Of a stretch of DNA of 64,000 nucleotides, positions 51,497 to 57,285 are shown one piece after another. Position numbers and translations under genes: made by a program. Source of the DNA: an uncultured archaeon. Its GTDB lineage: Archaea > Asgardarchaeota > Lokiarchaeia > Sigyniarchaeales > SOKP01. The notes below the pieces were generated by a model. It was given only the letters and a program-made list of their open reading frames with translations, was not told where the DNA came from and made no database searches. The number at the start of each line of letters is the position of its first letter. Within the stretch, counting starts at the first letter, position 1. The stretch covers positions 456,242-520,241 of the forward strand of contig CAZALK010000001.1 in NCBI GenBank assembly GCA_964486045.1, given 5' to 3'.

Positions 51497-54379
51497 ATGA
51501 GCTTCAAATCGAAAGGTCCGAAATCACATCCCAGCCACAGCCCTAAAGCTAAACCCGAACCGCCTAAACCCACCCCTGAAAAAGATTCAAAACCATCTAA
51601 CCAAAAACCGAACCAAAAGCCAAAACATAAACCTAATCAAAATTCTAAACCTCAACCAGGAAAAATTCGACAGGATAAAAATCAAAAACCAAAAACTAAC
51701 CCAAGTGAAAAATCTAAAAATAATATTAGCCCACCCCTCCTAGACCTGAATAACAATGCTAAAAAGATCATTACTAACCTCGCCTCTCAGCCAATTAAAG
51801 AACATACCACACCTCCTACAAAATCTCCCCTAGAACCGAATAAAGAATCTAAAAACAGAATAATCCGACCCGTTTTCAAACCGAATATGATTCAAAATGG
51901 TAATAATAGAATTAAACGCCCTAACTTCAAACCGGATCAACATAAAGGATCTAAAAATATCATCTCCCGACTAATATTCGATCCAAATAAACCTTCCTCT
52001 AATAAAAATAAAATTTCTCGGCCAAATTTCATACCTAATGATGAAGCTAAGAATAAAATCATAAAATATACAATTGAATCAACAGGAAAACCTAAAAACA
52101 GAATTAATAGATACCAAATTGACTCGGGTAAAAACCAACAATATAATAATAAAATAAGGAGGATTCCATTCAAGCCAAATGATGAAATTAAAAACAATAC
52201 CGAAAGTACACCCGCCAGACCTAAGCATATCAAAAATAATAGTCAACCAGCAATAATAAAACCAACTACTACACCCCCCCAAATAACCAAAAACAAGATT
52301 ATTAAGACTGAACCCCTCACTCACCCGCAAAAAGAAACCAGGAAAAATATAGTTAAATCCAGATGGGCATTCCTTAACTACGATGCTCAAGGAAACCTAC
52401 TCTCGCGTGAAGTCAAAATGCAAAATGCTGTCAACCACTTCAACCGAGAAATCCTTCCCGAATTAATGAAAGATCCCGCCATCGCTAAAAAAATTAAAAA
52501 ATTACACACAGTCGGTTCAAACGACCTAGTTCGTAAAAATTATAGCGGATTCCTCAACGCCTTGAGCAGAGAACATAAAATTAAATGGAGTGAACTCAAA
52601 TCTACTATAAGTCCTATTAAAATTACCACACATTTAACCATGCTGAAAGGGAAAACCTCGCTCAAGCCTAAACATAAGACTAAATCCAAACCAGATCTTA
52701 ATTATGACTACTTTTCCATGAATTATGATGATAACCTAAATCCGCTTAACCGTGAACAAAAACTTCAAAAGGCAATCACAGTCTACAATCAAAAAATTTT
52801 ACCTGATCTCCAAAATGTTCCAGAAATTAAAGAAAAACTCGAAAATGGAAAGAGTGTAAGCTACCGAGACCTTGAAAATCAAGGGTATGGGAATTTTTAC
52901 GAGGCTTTAAATAGAAATGGCGTGAAGATCAGATGGAACGAATTCAAACAAGAAGCTGGCTATAAAGTTAACATTGATCACGAAAAATACAAGTTTCTTA
53001 ACTACGATCAGAATGGCAATAGAATTAACCCTGAGGAAAAATTAGTCATTGCCCTTGACCACTACAATAATATTATCGTACCAGACTTGATGAAAATCCC
53101 TGAAATCAAACAAAAGATTGAATCTGGATATCCTCCTGCCCTTGATGATTTGATTAAATACGGACATCCGGGATTCATCGCACCCCTCTCTCAAAAAGAA
53201 CCAAAAATCCATTATAACACCTTAATTGAAGCAGCAGGCCTTAAACCAAATGTGGATCACAATAAATATCGATTCTTAAATTACAATGAACAAGATACTC
53301 CTCATTCTTATCAAGACAAAATGGAAATTGCCAAGGAATTCTTCAGTAATATCATTGTCCCAAAGCTGATCGAGAAAGATTTAATTAGACCAGGGGAAAC
53401 TCCAGGTCTCAGGGAAATGGTCAAGGGTGGATTCAGTGGATTTTTTCCTTCTCTCGCCTTTAAAGAACAGAAAATTGATTACAATGATCTAATTCAAGCA
53501 GTAGGTCTCGACCCAAATATTACTCATGGTCGTTGGGATTTCATCAAATATGACCATAACGGAAATATTCTCTCGAAGGAAGAAAAACTCGCCAACGCTG
53601 CTGATTATTTTAACACAATTGTTTACCCCGATTTAATTAACAAGGATGCTGTTAAGCAAGGAGAAGCCCCGACTTCCCTTGATCTACAGGATTATAAGCA
53701 TGAGGATTTTCTCAGTGCCTTGCGTGGTAAAGAACCTAAAGTTTCATTTAACCGTTTAATTGAGCATGCGGGATTCACCCCACATGATTTTAATACTTTA
53801 TCTACAATAGGCACTAATTTTCATTGGACCGCAGAAAAAATTTTTTTGGAACATACCAGAAATCAAAATTGCACTTCTTTCTATGAAGTTAGAGGAAATG
53901 GTGACAATTCAATTGTAGTTGATAAAAATTTTAAAAATTTATCCAATGGTGCGGATCTTCTTGCTCAATTACGTCCAAATATTAAGATTATTAATTTTGA
54001 TTATTTTCTCAGTAACTCAGAAAAAAGTAAAACTGATCATAGCCAAAGAAACTACCAAGGTGAAGAAGTAGCGCTTTGTCTTATCCCTCTAAATGCTAAT
54101 GAACCGCAAGACATAGATCAAGACATTCCTCATAGTAATAATGTTTTAGTTTTAAATCCTAAAGGTTTCGCCGCTTTCCTGGGATATAAAGATGGAATTT
54201 ACGATAAATTTATGGAAAGTGTCCAATTAGCGAGAATAGCCATGTACGATGAGGAGGCAAAAGAGATATTATATGAAATGAGAGTAGAAGCTTATGATGC
54301 CCTAAAAAGCAATGAAAACGATTTAAATTACTCGACAAAAGAATTTAAAAAGTTCCGCGATACACAAAAAGAAACTTAA
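51497..54379 (+). CDS. Low-complexity leader + five ~90-aa repeats + putative PD-(D/E)xK nuclease domain
   Basis: K/P/N-rich N-terminus with KNRI.RP.F.PN mini-repeats; 5x (F)LNYD..GN....EK...A..(F/Y)N..I.P.L...G...F..AL; C-terminal GTNFH...YE...GD...FDY. Confidence 0.7.
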   Translation: MSFKSKGPKSHPSHSPKAKPEPPKPTPEKDSKPSNQKPNQKPKHKPNQNSKPQPGKIRQDKNQKPKTNPSEKSKNNISPPLLDLNNNAKKIITNLASQPIKEHTTPPTKSPLEPNKESKNRIIRPVFKPNMIQNGNNRIKRPNFKPDQHKGSKNIISRLIFDPNKPSSNKNKISRPNFIPNDEAKNKIIKYTIESTGKPKNRINRYQIDSGKNQQYNNKIRRIPFKPNDEIKNNTESTPARPKHIKNNSQPAIIKPTTTPPQITKNKIIKTEPLTHPQKETRKNIVKSRWAFLNYDAQGNLLSREVKMQNAVNHFNREILPELMKDPAIAKKIKKLHTVGSNDLVRKNYSGFLNALSREHKIKWSELKSTISPIKITTHLTMLKGKTSLKPKHKTKSKPDLNYDYFSMNYDDNLNPLNREQKLQKAITVYNQKILPDLQNVPEIKEKLENGKSVSYRDLENQGYGNFYEALNRNGVKIRWNEFKQEAGYKVNIDHEKYKFLNYDQNGNRINPEEKLVIALDHYNNIIVPDLMKIPEIKQKIESGYPPALDDLIKYGHPGFIAPLSQKEPKIHYNTLIEAAGLKPNVDHNKYRFLNYNEQDTPHSYQDKMEIAKEFFSNIIVPKLIEKDLIRPGETPGLREMVKGGFSGFFPSLAFKEQKIDYNDLIQAVGLDPNITHGRWDFIKYDHNGNILSKEEKLANAADYFNTIVYPDLINKDAVKQGEAPTSLDLQDYKHEDFLSALRGKEPKVSFNRLIEHAGFTPHDFNTLSTIGTNFHWTAEKIFLEHTRNQNCTSFYEVRGNGDNSIVVDKNFKNLSNGADLLAQLRPNIKIINFDYFLSNSEKSKTDHSQRNYQGEEVALCLIPLNANEPQDIDQDIPHSNNVLVLNPKGFAAFLGYKDGIYDKFMESVQLARIAMYDEEAKEILYEMRVEAYDALKSNENDLNYSTKEFKKFRDTQKET

Positions 54380-54570
54380 GATGAGAATAGAATTAATTAT
54401 AAATATGAATTGTTTTACTATTTATTACAAGAACTTATATTTATAACAATTAAAAGAGTTAATTTTAGTAAAAATATAATTTATATCGAACTTAATAATA
54501 TGGTTGTTTATGATGTTTGATCGTAAAGGAAATTATTGGAATTACCAATTAAAGCTAGGAGGTGCGAGAA

Positions 54571-55356
54571 ATTCTCCATAATTTTTACTTGATACACCAG
54601 CATATCTCCCCGGAGATTCTCCGTTGAGTGTTAACGGGTATCTGTTTAATACATAGAAATTATGGCACCATCGAATTCAATCAGGATTTAGTGAGTGGCT
54701 TTCTAACCGCCCTTAAGGACTTTAGTGTTGAGTTTTCCAAGGGTAGCGGAGAACTCAAGGTTATAGGTTGTAGATAGATTTTATCTATTAATAAAGACAT
54801 GCAGATATTTTATCTGCTTTTAGTCTTTAAGGAGGGTGTCTTATGTACAGCTGCTGCTGATAAAAATGATGATGCCAAGATTACCCATAAAGCACTAACT
54901 GATATTATTGACAAATTCGTAGGAAAGTTCGGTGATCAGCTTGAGAATTGGTCTGGTGATGTACGTATTTTTCGAGACTTTGAGAGCATAATCGACGATG
55001 TCCTGAAAGTAGGTAAGGTTGCGGAGATCCAGCTAAAGATCCCGATACTCAAAATTTTCAAGAAGGATTTCATCAAGTCGCAGAAGCGCATTGCGAAGAA
55101 GGGGCTGGTGCTTTCGGAGGCGGATTTGCGAGAGGTGAAGGATGTGAAACCGGAGTGGGCTGCCAAGCGCTTACCGAAACAGGTTATAGCGACCGGAATT
55201 TTAGATGCGGTGGAGTTTGATATCGCGCATTTAGCGGACGGATTTCACACGCTTTCGGATATCGCGGAAGAGTCGGGTCACCCAGTGCCAGAGATTCAGA
55301 AGATTATGGACAATTTAGACAAGTTAGAGCTTCTTTCGTTTGTAGAGATAAAGTAA
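54571..55356 (+). CDS. Longin-like domain protein with C-terminal wHTH; spliced CDS (54571-54604, 54635-54766, 54797-55356), 241 aa, ATT start
   Basis: AGGAGGTG RBS at 54557-54564. Spliced product MLHNFYLIHQHTGICLIHRNYGTIEFNQDLVSGFLTALKDFSVEFSKGSGELKVIDMQIFYLLLVFKEGVLCTAAAD matches the Asgard longin-like pattern; DGFHTLSDIAEESG is wHTH-like. Confidence 0.82.
54605..54634 (+). other. Putative 30-nt BHB mRNA intron 1 in longin-like gene
   Basis: GAUAC(A)CC AGCA UA^U CUC CC CGGAG AUU CUCCG UU GAG UGUU AA^C GG GUAUC; in-frame UGA at 54625-54627. Confidence 0.83.
54767..54796 (+). other. Putative 30-nt BHB mRNA intron 2 in longin-like gene
   Basis: G UUAU AG^G UUGUAGAUA GAUUU UAUCUAUUA AUAA AG^A C; in-frame UAG at 54775-54777. 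Removal gives LKVIDMQ. Confidence 0.83.
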
Positions 55357-55812
55357 TTTTATTCTTTCTTTTTATATTAGACCATTTCTATAATGAAGAG
55401 TTTAGCCTATTCTTGAAAAATAATATCTTCAATTCGCTTCAAAAGCTGTTTTCCAAGCTTGGTGGGATAGACTTGTTTGAGCCATGTTGAGGTACGCCTC
55501 AATAGATTATCTCTTTCCTAGTGATTTAAGCGCTTTATTCATTAGCAGGCATACCACTCCTTTTAATTTTTTTAAATAATCCTGAGATATCTCCAATTTC
55601 TTTTTTTTTATTTTTTTAAATCTTTATATTTTATCTCTTTTCAAATCACAGCATATATACCAACCTAAATAATTATGAAGCATTAAGAGTAAAAGTAAAA
55701 AAAAATATCATAAAACAAGATGAAAAGTAAGATTAAAGTATATAATAAATTTTATGACGTTATAGAATTAAATGAATAAATTTTTGAAAACTAACTGATT
55801 TATAACGATAAG

Positions 55813-57285
55813 ATGAATGTTAATAAAGTTGAGGAGAATATTTATGAGATTCCTCCAAAAACATTGATGACCCGGATTCAAGGCAATATAGAGAAATTCC
55901 AAATGAACGTTCCTGTTAGAATTTATGCTAATAGCTATATATTAGAAAAAATCAAGGGAGATCGTACATTAGATCAAATAAGTAATGTTGCATGCTTACC
56001 AGGGGTACAAAAACACGTTATTGCATTATCCGATGCACATCAAGGATATGGTTTCTGTATTGGTGGAGTTGCTGGAACTGAAGCTGAGACAGGAATGATT
56101 TCTCCAGGAGGAGTTGGTTATGATATAAACTGCGGTGTGAGATTATTAAGGACAAATTTATTTCTCACCGATATTAAAAGTCTTTTACCTGAATTATTAG
56201 AGAATATTTATAGAAGTATCCCTTCTGGATTAGGGTCAAAAGGTAAATTAAATATTAGTTATTCTGACTTAGATAATGTTTTAAATAATGGAGTGAAATG
56301 GGCATTAGATAAGGGGTATGCTATTGATAAGGATGTTGACCATCTAGAGGAAAACGGGTGTCTAAAAAATGCGGATGCCACCTTAGTTTCACAGAAGGCA
56401 AAACAAAGAGGCATTAAGCAACTTGGTTCTTTAGGAAGCGGGAATCATTTTCTTGAAATACAAAGAGTAGATCAAATTTACAATAAAGCTATTGCGAAAA
56501 AATTAGGAATTTTCGAGAAAAACCAGATTAATATAATGGTTCATACGGGAAGTAGAGCATTAGGTCATCAAGTTTGTACAGATAGCCTGCGTACTATTGA
56601 AAAGGCGATGAAAACATATAAAATTAAAGTACCTGATAGGGAACTAGCCTGTGTACCAGCAGATACACCTGAAGCAGAAAATTACCTACAACAGATGGCA
56701 TGTGCTGCTAATTTTGGTTTTACAAATCGTCAGTTGATAACTCATTGGTTGAGAGAATCTTTTCAAAATGCATTTAATAAAGACATCGATGCATTAGATA
56801 TGCATATGATTTATGGTGTATGCCATAACATTCTAAAAATAGAAGAACATGATGTGAATGGAAAAAGAATGAATTTAAACATCCATCGTAAAGGTGCAAC
56901 AAGAGCTTTCCCTCCAGGACACCCTGATATACCTCAAGATTATAAAGACATTGGTCAACCTGTCTTGATTCCTGGAACCATGGGATCGGGTTCATACTTA
57001 TGTGTTGGTAAACCAAGGGCAATGGAGCTTTCTTTCGGATCAACCGCTCATGGCTCAGGTCGTTTAATGTCTCGATCGAAAGCCGTTAAACAATATTGGG
57101 GTGCTAAAGTAAAAGAGGATCTGGGAAAGAAAGGAATTTTAGTAAAAAGCGCTTCATTGAAGGTCCTCGCAGAAGAAAGCCCAGGTGCTTATAAAGATAT
57201 TGATCAAGTTGTTCAAGTTAGTCATAATCTTGGAATAGTTGAAAAAATCGTAAGATTTGTACCGGTAGGGGTTGTTAAAGGATAA
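55813..57285 (+). CDS. rtcB: RNA-splicing ligase RtcB
   Basis: DAHQGYGFCIGG, PGGVGYDINCG, GSGNHFLE, HTGSR, HN, HRKGAT, PGTMG, HGSGR, EESPGAYK. Confidence 0.97.
   Translation: MNVNKVEENIYEIPPKTLMTRIQGNIEKFQMNVPVRIYANSYILEKIKGDRTLDQISNVACLPGVQKHVIALSDAHQGYGFCIGGVAGTEAETGMISPGGVGYDINCGVRLLRTNLFLTDIKSLLPELLENIYRSIPSGLGSKGKLNISYSDLDNVLNNGVKWALDKGYAIDKDVDHLEENGCLKNADATLVSQKAKQRGIKQLGSLGSGNHFLEIQRVDQIYNKAIAKKLGIFEKNQINIMVHTGSRALGHQVCTDSLRTIEKAMKTYKIKVPDRELACVPADTPEAENYLQQMACAANFGFTNRQLITHWLRESFQNAFNKDIDALDMHMIYGVCHNILKIEEHDVNGKRMNLNIHRKGATRAFPPGHPDIPQDYKDIGQPVLIPGTMGSGSYLCVGKPRAMELSFGSTAHGSGRLMSRSKAVKQYWGAKVKEDLGKKGILVKSASLKVLAEESPGAYKDIDQVVQVSHNLGIVEKIVRFVPVGVVKG

What the first reader, a model, noticed from the sequence alone, without database searches (positions are those of the whole stretch)
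54605..54634. BHB intron 1 in a longin-like (eukaryotic-signature-type) gene
This is the most complete BHB of the three. Outer helix GAUAC(A)CC/GGGUAUC, central helix AGCA/UGUU, bulges UAU and AAC, inner stems CUC/GAG and CGGAG/CUCCG. It carries an in-frame UGA. Excision gives CAU A|CG, yielding MLHNFYLIHQHTGICLIHRNYG, a typical first-strand 'hYhI...GhCL' start for Asgard longin-like domains. The ORF track misses the first ~55 residues entirely.
Basis: partly seen in the sequence, partly recalled or inferred. Interest (0 to 1): 0.88.

Follow-up and report, generated by a model that had tools for sequence, protein, structure and literature searches.

The report
tRNA-type introns split Asgard longin gene
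A conserved longin-plus-DNA-binding-domain gene of a Loki-type Asgard archaeon is broken by two 30-base inserts shaped like archaeal tRNA introns, so its mRNA almost certainly has to be cut and rejoined by the tRNA-splicing enzymes before the protein can be made; the papers I could search describe this for only one other archaeal protein gene family (cbf5), and no RNA data were available to prove it here.

Summary
Window 54605-54634 is a 30-nt insert with an in-frame TGA. The minimum-energy fold reproduces the drawn bulge-helix-bulge (BHB) exactly. Cutting after the second nucleotide of each bulge gives CAGCATA|CGGGTATC.

Uninterrupted 241-aa orthologues, up to 97% identical, lack exactly these 10 codons and a second 10-codon insert (54767-54796, with TAG). 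The spliced product aligns to them without gaps (233/240 identical).

Across relatives:
- The insert sits at the same site in at least 10 other distinct Lokiarchaeia sequences, with compensatory base changes.
- Two relatives carry 31-nt versions, which shift the frame.
- Two others carry 31- and 35-nt BHB-like inserts two codons downstream.
- Exons 1 and 2 are under strong purifying selection in carriers (dN/dS 0-0.09).

The genome encodes two EndA-family proteins, and RtcB lies directly downstream.

The N-terminal domain folds as a longin domain (pLDDT 90).

What is missing is RNA-level proof: no RNA run was listed.

The kind is known from the cbf5 pre-mRNA intron of Crenarchaeota. A three-exon archaeal protein gene in Asgard is new in the literature I could search. 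This scan has already noted the same phenomenon in many other Asgard genes and genomes.

The parts
54562..54604 (+). Exon 1. The start is either GTG 54562 or AUU 54571, which is homologous to the ATG/TTG start of orthologues. It encodes (MRE)ILHNFYLIHQH plus the first base of the Thr codon.
   Evidence: Some orthologues start three codons upstream in the same way (P0009, P0037). The Shine-Dalgarno-like GGAGGT at 54558-54563 lies 7 nt before 54571.
54605..54634 (+). Intron 1: a 30-nt BHB intron with in-frame TGA at 54625-54627. Because A54604 = A54634, boundaries of 54604-54633 would give the same product.
   Evidence: MFE fold; absent from 241-aa orthologues; covariation.
54591..54598 (+). 5' strand of the outer (exonic) helix of BHB 1, GAUACACC, with A54596 bulged.
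   Evidence: All 7 pairs form in 8 of 11 carrier rows (two of them, L001 and L002, repeat the window's own sequence) and in 0 of 57 intronless orthologues.
54599..54602 (+). 5' strand (exonic) of the central 4-bp helix of BHB 1, AGCA. It pairs with 54629-54632 (UGUU).
   Evidence: The C-G pair switches to U-A together with the His/Tyr codon in relatives.
54603..54605 (+). 5' bulge UAU. The predicted cut is between 54604 and 54605.
   Evidence: The cut position is inferred from the archaeal EndA rule and is consistent with the orthologue junction.
54606..54628 (+). Inner hairpin of intron 1 (CUC..CGGAG AUU CUCCG..GAG).
   Evidence: The GGAGnUUCUCC core is largely conserved (exact in 4 of 11 rows), and the lower stem shows compensatory changes.
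54629..54632 (+). 3' strand (intronic) of the central helix of BHB 1, UGUU.
54633..54635 (+). 3' bulge AAC, invariant in all 11 carriers. The predicted cut is between 54634 and 54635.
54636..54642 (+). 3' strand of the outer (exonic) helix of BHB 1, GGGUAUC.
54635..54766 (+). Exon 2, encoding (T)GICLIHRNYGTIEFNQDLVSGFLTALKDFSVEFSKGSGELKVI plus the first base of the Asp codon.
   Evidence: For exons 1+2 among carriers, dN is 0-0.036 and dS is 0.14-2.0.
54767..54796 (+). Intron 2: 30 nt, with in-frame TAG at 54775-54777. It is a relaxed BHB (HBh'-like). The central helix is UUAU (54761-64) / AUAA (54791-94), the bulges are AGG (54765-67) and AGA (54795-97), the inner hairpin is 54768-54790, and the outer helix is essentially one G-C pair (54760/54798).
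   Evidence: Absent from 241-aa orthologues. Present at the same site in 12 other distinct sequences; 92% of cells are paired against 26-56% for slid controls.
54797..55356 (+). Exon 3: the rest of the longin domain plus a C-terminal winged-helix domain. The stop is TAA at 55354-55356.
   Evidence: (HTH_47, E = 2.3e-5, below the cut-off).
54801..54817 (+). Exonic hairpin GCAGAUA-UUU-UAUCUGC, 4 nt downstream of the intron-2 3' splice site.
   Evidence: It is better paired in intron-2 carriers (mean 6.1 of 7) than in non-carriers (5.1 of 7), Mann-Whitney p = 0.0014. The CAA/UUG and CAG/CUG codon pairs co-vary.
55813..57285 (+). rtcB, the RNA 3'-phosphate/2',3'-cyclic phosphate ligase. It is the enzyme expected to rejoin the exons.
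   Evidence: Pfam RtcB, E = 4.7e-167. It lies directly downstream on the same strand in 66 of the 80 species loci, 78 of which hold at least 700 nt downstream.

Best explanation
The gene at 54562-55356 encodes a 241-244-aa protein with an N-terminal longin domain and a C-terminal winged helix. In the DNA it is written in three exons, separated by two 30-nt archaeal bulge-helix-bulge introns (54605-54634 and 54767-54796).

Proposed mechanism:
1. In the primary transcript, exon sequence pairs with the intron to form the BHB. For intron 1 this is a 7-bp exon-exon outer helix, a 4-bp exon-intron central helix, two 3-nt bulges and an intron hairpin.
2. The tRNA-splicing endonuclease EndA cuts after the second nucleotide of each bulge. 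This genome has two EndA paralogues, which fits the heteromeric (alpha-beta)2 type reported for Asgard.
3. RtcB, encoded immediately downstream, ligates the exons, and the intron is released, probably as a circle.
4. Only the spliced mRNA yields the full protein. Unspliced mRNA terminates at UGA after 21 codons.

What is shown here: the inserts, their geometry, their exact absence from orthologues, covariation, selection on the exons, and the presence of the enzymes.

What is inferred: cleavage, ligation and circularisation in vivo.
For: 1. The MFE fold equals a canonical hBHBh' motif.

2. 241-aa orthologues at up to 97% identity lack exactly the two 10-codon inserts. The predicted spliced product is gapless and 233/240 identical to P0002.

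3. Of 80 species-representative loci, most are uninterrupted. Three have both inserts, six have insert 2 only and one has insert 1 only, always at the same nucleotide positions.

4. The insert-1 versions in L050 and L085 are 31 nt. L093 and L096/97 carry 31- and 35-nt BHB-like inserts two codons downstream (central helix CUGG/CCAG in L093). These shift the frame, so only removal at RNA level can restore the conserved protein.

5. Covariation in intron 1:
- 9 of 21 pairs change on both sides.
- 85% of cells are paired, against 35-49% when partners are slid.
- 0 of 500 shuffles reach the observed score.

6. The exonic outer helix is fully paired in 8 of 11 carrier rows (two of them, L001 and L002, repeat the window's own sequence) and 0 of 57 intronless orthologues (Fisher p = 2e-8, not corrected for phylogeny).

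7. Exons 1+2, which are cut off from any long ORF, have dN/dS of about 0-0.09 among double carriers, with dS up to 2.

8. The enzymes are present. There are two EndA-family genes, one closest to crenarchaeal catalytic alpha subunits. rtcB is adjacent. Asgard EndA is reported as (alpha-beta)2 with the L1 loop linked to broad specificity (PMC5829648).

9. The same sequence appears in two independent assemblies (L001, L002), so it is not an assembly artefact.
Against: - Splicing has not been observed directly for this gene.
- The folding energy of the BHB region is not exceptional (z = -1.84).
- In 10 of 11 carriers the outermost central-helix pair is an A.G mismatch. MFE folds of most relatives show an internal loop instead of the central helix. 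The window's copy is therefore the best-formed one.
- Intron 2 has almost no outer helix and a mismatch in the inner stem, so it needs a permissive endonuclease.
- The cut position within the bulges is taken from the known EndA rule, not measured.
Confidence: 0.88

Rival explanations
1. The gene is a pseudogene, or is now truncated. The inserts are inactivating insertions, and only the 185-aa ORF from ATG 54799 (or nothing) is expressed.
For: Both inserts carry in-frame stops. Gene callers report 185-aa products for many relatives.
Against: - Exons 1+2 upstream of the 185-aa ORF stay under strong purifying selection among carriers that differ at up to saturated synonymous sites.
- The inserts are retained at identical sites, with compensatory changes, in several lineages.
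- The 185-aa product would lack beta1-beta3 and alpha1 of the longin fold.
Confidence: 0.03
2. The inserts are skipped or read through by the ribosome, either by programmed translational bypassing as in T4 gene 60 or by stop-codon recoding. They are not removed from the RNA.
For: Each insert is a short hairpin with a stop codon, which superficially resembles a bypass element.
Against: - There is no matching take-off and landing codon pair at either insert (sequence).
- Read-through would add 10 residues in the beta1-beta2 turn and after beta3, and no orthologue has them.
- The 31- and 35-nt variants would need bypasses of exact, differing lengths.
- The inserts' boundaries coincide with BHB cut sites rather than codon boundaries: all are phase 1.
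Confidence: 0.03
3. The inserts are genuine BHB substrates, but cleavage serves mainly to destroy or down-regulate the mRNA. Exon ligation is inefficient, so the element acts as an off-switch rather than a constitutively removed intron.
For: [quoted passage not shown] The weak BHBs in relatives suggest sub-optimal substrates.
Against: Purifying selection on exon 1, which is only 11-14 codons, makes sense only if the exons are joined and translated. Frame-restoring precision is conserved across 30-, 31- and 35-nt versions.
Confidence: 0.06

Closest known systems
cbf5 pre-mRNA intron of Crenarchaeota (Aeropyrum, Sulfolobales, Desulfurococcales; Watanabe 2002, Yoshinari 2006, Yokobori 2009 = PMC2738675)
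   Same: - A BHB-type intron lies inside a protein-coding sequence.
- It is predicted or shown to be cut by a hetero-oligomeric splicing endonuclease.
- Presence and absence are lineage-specific, with inferred secondary losses.
- It causes gene callers to mis-predict the gene.
   Different: - The gene is different (longin-wHTH, not a pseudouridine synthase) and so is the phylum (Asgard/Lokiarchaeia).
- There are two introns in one mRNA, and a third site in relatives.
- The distribution is far more scattered: at least 9 changes for intron 2 on the gene tree.
- There is no RNA-level proof here, whereas cbf5 splicing was shown experimentally.
[quoted passage not shown]
   Same: The hBHBh' geometry and the expected enzymes (EndA, RtcB) are the same. 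Gains appear repeated and patchy, and no arrival route has been identified.
   Different: The host RNA is an mRNA. The exonic halves of the helices are coding sequence, so synonymous sites carry the structural constraint.
HAC1/XBP1 unconventional cytoplasmic mRNA splicing in eukaryotes (IRE1 cleavage, ligation by Trl1 or RtcB)
   Same: Splicing is spliceosome-independent. An endonuclease cuts at stem-loops, and a tRNA ligase (RtcB in metazoa) joins the exons of an mRNA that encodes a DNA-binding protein.
   Different: The nuclease is unrelated (IRE1 rather than EndA) and so is the motif. Regulation by stress is established there and is pure speculation here. This comparison rests on my own knowledge.

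Membership tests
Archaeal BHB (EndA-dependent) intron | Two 3-nt bulges on opposite strands, separated by a 4-bp helix. | tested here: met
   The MFE fold of 54586-54647 gives bulges at 54603-05 and 54633-35, with the central helix 54599-602 / 54629-32.
Archaeal BHB (EndA-dependent) intron | Flanking helices h and h' (strict hBHBh'). | tested here: met
   The outer helix has 7 bp with one bulged A. The inner stems have 3 + 5 bp. Intron 2 meets only the relaxed HBh'-like form.
Archaeal BHB (EndA-dependent) intron | Cutting at the symmetric bulge positions restores a functional, uninterrupted RNA. | tested here: met
   Excision gives a gapless match to intronless orthologues, 233/240 identical.
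Archaeal BHB (EndA-dependent) intron | The structure is conserved by compensatory substitutions in homologous introns. | tested here: met
   9 of 21 pairs change on both sides, and 0 of 500 shuffles reach the observed score. Slid controls pair at 35-49%, against 85% observed. The central-helix pair 12-46 is unpaired in 10 of 11 sequences.
Archaeal BHB (EndA-dependent) intron | The host encodes the splicing endonuclease and an RtcB-type ligase. | tested here: met
   There are two PF01974 genes in G000, with PDB matches to EndA alpha subunits. RtcB is at 55813-57285.
Archaeal BHB (EndA-dependent) intron | Spliced RNA and/or circular intron observed. | not testable with these tools
   No RNA holder was listed for the window gene or for L086.
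cbf5 pre-mRNA intron family | The intron resides in the cbf5 (pseudouridine synthase) gene at its conserved site. | tested here: not met
   The host gene is a longin-wHTH protein. The mechanism is the same kind, but this is not the same intron family.
Longin domain (host protein N-terminus) | beta-beta-alpha-beta-beta-beta-alpha-alpha fold with structural similarity to known longin domains. | tested here: met
   The AF2 model of P0002:1-130 has pLDDT 90.2 with the topology E-E-H-E-E-E-H-H. Foldseek top hits are AP-3/AP-1/AP-2 sigma and mu, TRAPP Bet5/Trs23, Sec22b and Mon1-Ccz1, with TM 0.6-0.73. The window's own Pfam Longin hit is only E = 0.077, but relatives hit Fuz_longin_1, Longin and Clat_adaptor_s.

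The most novel reading that the evidence does not exclude
The longin-wHTH gene is a conserved upstream neighbour of rtcB. If its product regulates rtcB or the RNA-repair/splicing locus, then in intron-bearing species the regulator's own mRNA needs EndA and RtcB to be made. That would form a ligase-sensing feedback loop, functionally analogous to RtcB-dependent XBP1/HAC1 splicing, in the archaeal lineage closest to eukaryotes.

Shown here: conserved synteny (66 of the 80 loci, 78 of which hold enough downstream flank) and the intron architecture.

Not shown: any regulatory role for the protein, co-transcription with rtcB, or condition-dependent splicing. Most species lack the introns, so any such loop would be lineage-specific.
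Probability: 0.1. Interest if true: 0.85.

Novelty: new member of a known kind. Interest (0 to 1): 0.66.

Why it matters
Protein-gene introns removed by the tRNA-splicing machinery are documented in print for essentially one archaeal gene family (cbf5).

This case adds several things:
- It shows the mechanism in Asgard archaea.
- It shows that one mRNA can carry two such introns, with a third site used in relatives.
- It shows that such introns come and go often among close relatives. This is the pattern recently reported for Asgard tRNA introns.

There are two practical consequences. Gene callers truncate the protein to 185 aa or split it in many public genomes, so Asgard proteomes, including the 'eukaryotic signature' longin and GTPase-regulator inventories, are under-called wherever such introns sit. 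It also gives a clean, short substrate (62 nt) for testing Asgard EndA/RtcB specificity.

Tried and rejected
- **RNA evidence.** No RNA holder was listed for window:54400-55400 or for the carrier locus L086.
- **Full-length structure.** The first prediction, from a shallow alignment, was poor (pLDDT 41). It was replaced by an N-domain model from a 60-sequence alignment.
- **Genome-wide scan of G000.** I looked for BHB motifs whose excision fuses ORFs (one run timed out). Observed counts were close to chance expectation at every length. The filter also excluded the window's own intron, because exon 1 has only 14 codons. The scan is uninformative in both directions.
- **Extra copies of the introns.** I searched the genome for further copies of either intron and found only the original copies, so there is no sign of a multi-copy mobile family.
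- **Metagenome pattern scan for intron 1.** This gave only 2 loci.
- **Recent intron gain or loss.** I compared the 97%-identical intronless P0002 locus with the window. The DNA is only about 80% identical, so this is not a recent allele pair.
- **Rfam and ARAGORN.** Both found nothing in the window.
- **Literature.** Four searches found no paper on BHB introns in Asgard protein-coding genes. The library is incomplete, so this is not proof that none exists.

Full report
**1. The observation**

The + strand frame that starts at GTG 54562 runs to TAA 55354-55356. It is interrupted by only two stops: TGA 54625-54627 and TAG 54775-54777.

- Outer helix 54591-98 / 54636-42, with A54596 bulged.
- Central 4-bp helix AGCA / UGUU.
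- 3-nt bulges UAU and AAC on opposite strands.
- An inner hairpin.

Stability alone is ordinary: z = -1.84, and 10 of 200 shuffles fold as well. The informative point is that this geometry sits at boundaries fixed independently by homology. A comparable motif (4 central, 2 outer, 3 inner pairs, spacing 30) occurs at 2.6e-4 of positions in this genome.

**2. Orthologues**

A search with the 185-aa ORF found 409 relatives. All the named ones are Lokiarchaeia/Promethearchaeota-type Asgard MAGs (some labelled Thor-, Hod- or Hermodarchaeota). Many are 241 aa and many are 185 aa.

I aligned the read-through translation with fourteen 241-245-aa orthologues, which are up to 97% identical. They lack exactly two 10-codon blocks: HQH|ISPEILR*VL|TGICL and KVI|GCR*ILSINK|DMQ.

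Joining 54562-54604, 54635-54766 and 54797-55356 gives a 244-aa product (241 aa from the AUU at 54571). It is gapless and 233/240 identical to P0002. The junctions are CAGCATA|CGGGTATC and GTTATAG|ACATGCAG.

**3. Distribution and variants**

Among 80 species-representative loci from GTDB genomes:
- Most are uninterrupted (723 nt).
- L010, L013 and L014 have both inserts.
- L024, L030, L038, L047, L055 and L072 have insert 2 only.
- L050 has insert 1 only.

Metagenome contigs add further carriers: L085, L086, L088-L092 and L094-L097.

Three points matter:
- Positions are identical to the nucleotide, and all sites are phase 1.
- The insert-1 copies of L050 and L085 are 31 nt. L093 and L096/97 instead carry 31- and 35-nt A-rich inserts two codons downstream, between TG and ICL. 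These have their own BHB-like geometry. In L093 the central helix is CUGG/CCAG with bulges CAA and AGU, and the excised product reads HTGICL. These lengths shift the frame, so neither read-through nor an 'extra loop' reading can rescue the protein.
- On a gene tree, intron 1 needs at least 4 changes of state and intron 2 at least 9. Carriers are often well-supported sisters of intronless species. This is a single 723-nt gene tree, so it shows scatter and cannot tell gain from loss.

**4. Structure conservation**

For intron 1 (11 distinct sequences, alignment A3), the named structure gives 85% paired cells, against 35-49% for slid partners. Nine of 21 pairs change on both sides, and 0 of 500 shuffles reach the observed score.

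A telling case is the central-helix pair whose exonic base is the first base of the His/Tyr codon. It switches from C-G to U-A together with the intronic partner.

The 3' bulge AAC is invariant. The hairpin core GGAGnUUCUCC is largely conserved (exact in 4 of the 11 rows), while the lower stem varies by compensatory changes.

The outer helix is made entirely of coding sequence. All 7 pairs form in 8 of 11 carrier rows, two of which (L001, L002) repeat the window's own sequence, and in 0 of 57 intronless orthologues, which have 4-6 pairs. The site was therefore predisposed, and synonymous positions appear tuned in carriers. This comparison is not corrected for phylogeny.

Caveats:
- The outermost central pair is A.G in 10 of 11 carriers.
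- MFE folds of most relatives show an internal loop where the central helix should be.

Intron 2 (13 sequences, A4) is 92% paired, but only 2 pairs have double changes and the outer helix is a single base pair. It is a relaxed, HBh'-like motif.

**5. The exons are translated**

Among double carriers, the 54 codons of exons 1+2 are cut off from any long ORF by the stop-bearing inserts. They show dN of 0-0.036 against dS of 0.14-2.0. This rules out a pseudogene or a truncated 185-aa gene.

The same sequence occurs in two independent assemblies, which rules out an assembly artefact.

**6. Machinery**

The genome (5.18 Mb, 45 contigs) has two EndA-domain genes of 200-201 aa. One is closest to the catalytic alpha subunits of the crenarchaeal (alpha-beta)2 enzymes (3p1z_B, 3ajv_B, 2zyz_B). 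The other is closest to M. jannaschii and M. kandleri EndA.

This fits the published statement that Asgard archaea have (alpha-beta)2 EndA with the L1 loop, which is associated with broad substrate specificity (PMC5829648).

RtcB is encoded 456 nt downstream.

**7. The host protein**

Residues 1-130 of the intronless orthologue fold with pLDDT 90.2 into beta-beta-alpha-beta-beta-beta-alpha-alpha.

The best structural matches are longin domains: AP sigma/mu, TRAPP Bet5/Trs23, Sec22b, Mon1-Ccz1 and Fuzzy. Roadblock/MglB proteins rank lower. Distant relatives hit Pfam Fuz_longin_1, Longin and Clat_adaptor_s.

The C-terminus gives a sub-threshold winged-helix match (HTH_47).

Intron 1 falls in the beta1-beta2 turn. 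Intron 2 falls at the end of beta3.

**8. Rivals**

- Pseudogene or truncation is excluded by point 5.
- Translational bypassing or read-through lacks take-off and landing codons. It would also need different exact hop lengths in different species, and it does not explain why the boundaries coincide with BHB cut sites.
- A cleavage-only 'off-switch' is hard to reconcile with selection on an 11-14-codon exon 1.

**9. Comparison with what is known**

The kind is the archaeal BHB pre-mRNA intron, established for cbf5 in Crenarchaeota (PMC2738675; references 22-24 of PMC5829648). Four literature searches found no report of such introns in Asgard protein-coding genes. A 2026 preprint describes heavy, repeatedly gained tRNA introns in Asgard but does not treat mRNAs.

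Within this scan the phenomenon has been noted many times. There are 421 notes in at least 98 genomes. Several are in this same genome, and follow-ups in other genomes reported spliced reads for other genes. I did not test those.

This is therefore a new member of a known kind. The added features are two introns in one gene, a third site in relatives, and a highly scattered distribution.

**10. Context worth following**

rtcB lies directly downstream on the same strand in 66 of the 80 loci, 78 of which hold at least 700 nt downstream. The typical gap is 100-250 nt. A wHTH protein conserved next to the ligase gene, whose own mRNA in some species needs that ligase, invites a feedback hypothesis. 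Nothing here tests it.

No spliced RNA could be examined, because no RNA run was listed. That remains the decisive gap.

Noticed in passing
window 54562-57285 and loci L003-L082: The longin-wHTH gene and rtcB are conserved same-strand neighbours in 66 of the 80 species loci, 78 of which hold at least 700 nt downstream, typically 100-250 nt apart. This suggests a functional or transcriptional link that has no description I could find.
   Followed up: partly
L093:~470-505; L096/L097 (equivalent region): Other Lokiarchaeia carry a different A-rich intron of 31 or 35 nt two codons downstream of site 1 (between TG and ICL). It has its own BHB-like motif. This makes a third intron position in the same gene, and all three sites are phase 1.
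   Followed up: partly
window 54801-54817: A perfect 7-bp exonic hairpin (GCAGAUA-UUU-UAUCUGC) lies 4 nt after the intron-2 3' splice site. It is better paired in intron-2 carriers than in non-carriers (p = 0.0014), with CAA/UUG versus CAG/CUG co-variation. It may compensate for the missing outer helix of intron 2.
   Followed up: partly
window 54558-54573: The position homologous to the ATG/TTG start of orthologues is AUU (54571), 7 nt after a GGAGGT. Several other orthologues also have Ile codons there. The start may be GTG 54562 or a non-canonical AUU.
   Followed up: no
window 51497-54379: The upstream 960-aa ORF has a long Pro/Lys/Asn-rich N-terminus and roughly 90-aa repeats. It has no Pfam hit, and its relatives flank the longin gene in only 4 of 80 loci.
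   Followed up: no
L099 and L086 (JGI sample 3300024432, Ga0209977): An intronless copy and a two-intron copy of the gene occur in the same metagenome sample. The intronless L099 is about 80% identical in DNA to the window and the two-intron L086 about 86%, so they probably come from different species.
   Followed up: partly
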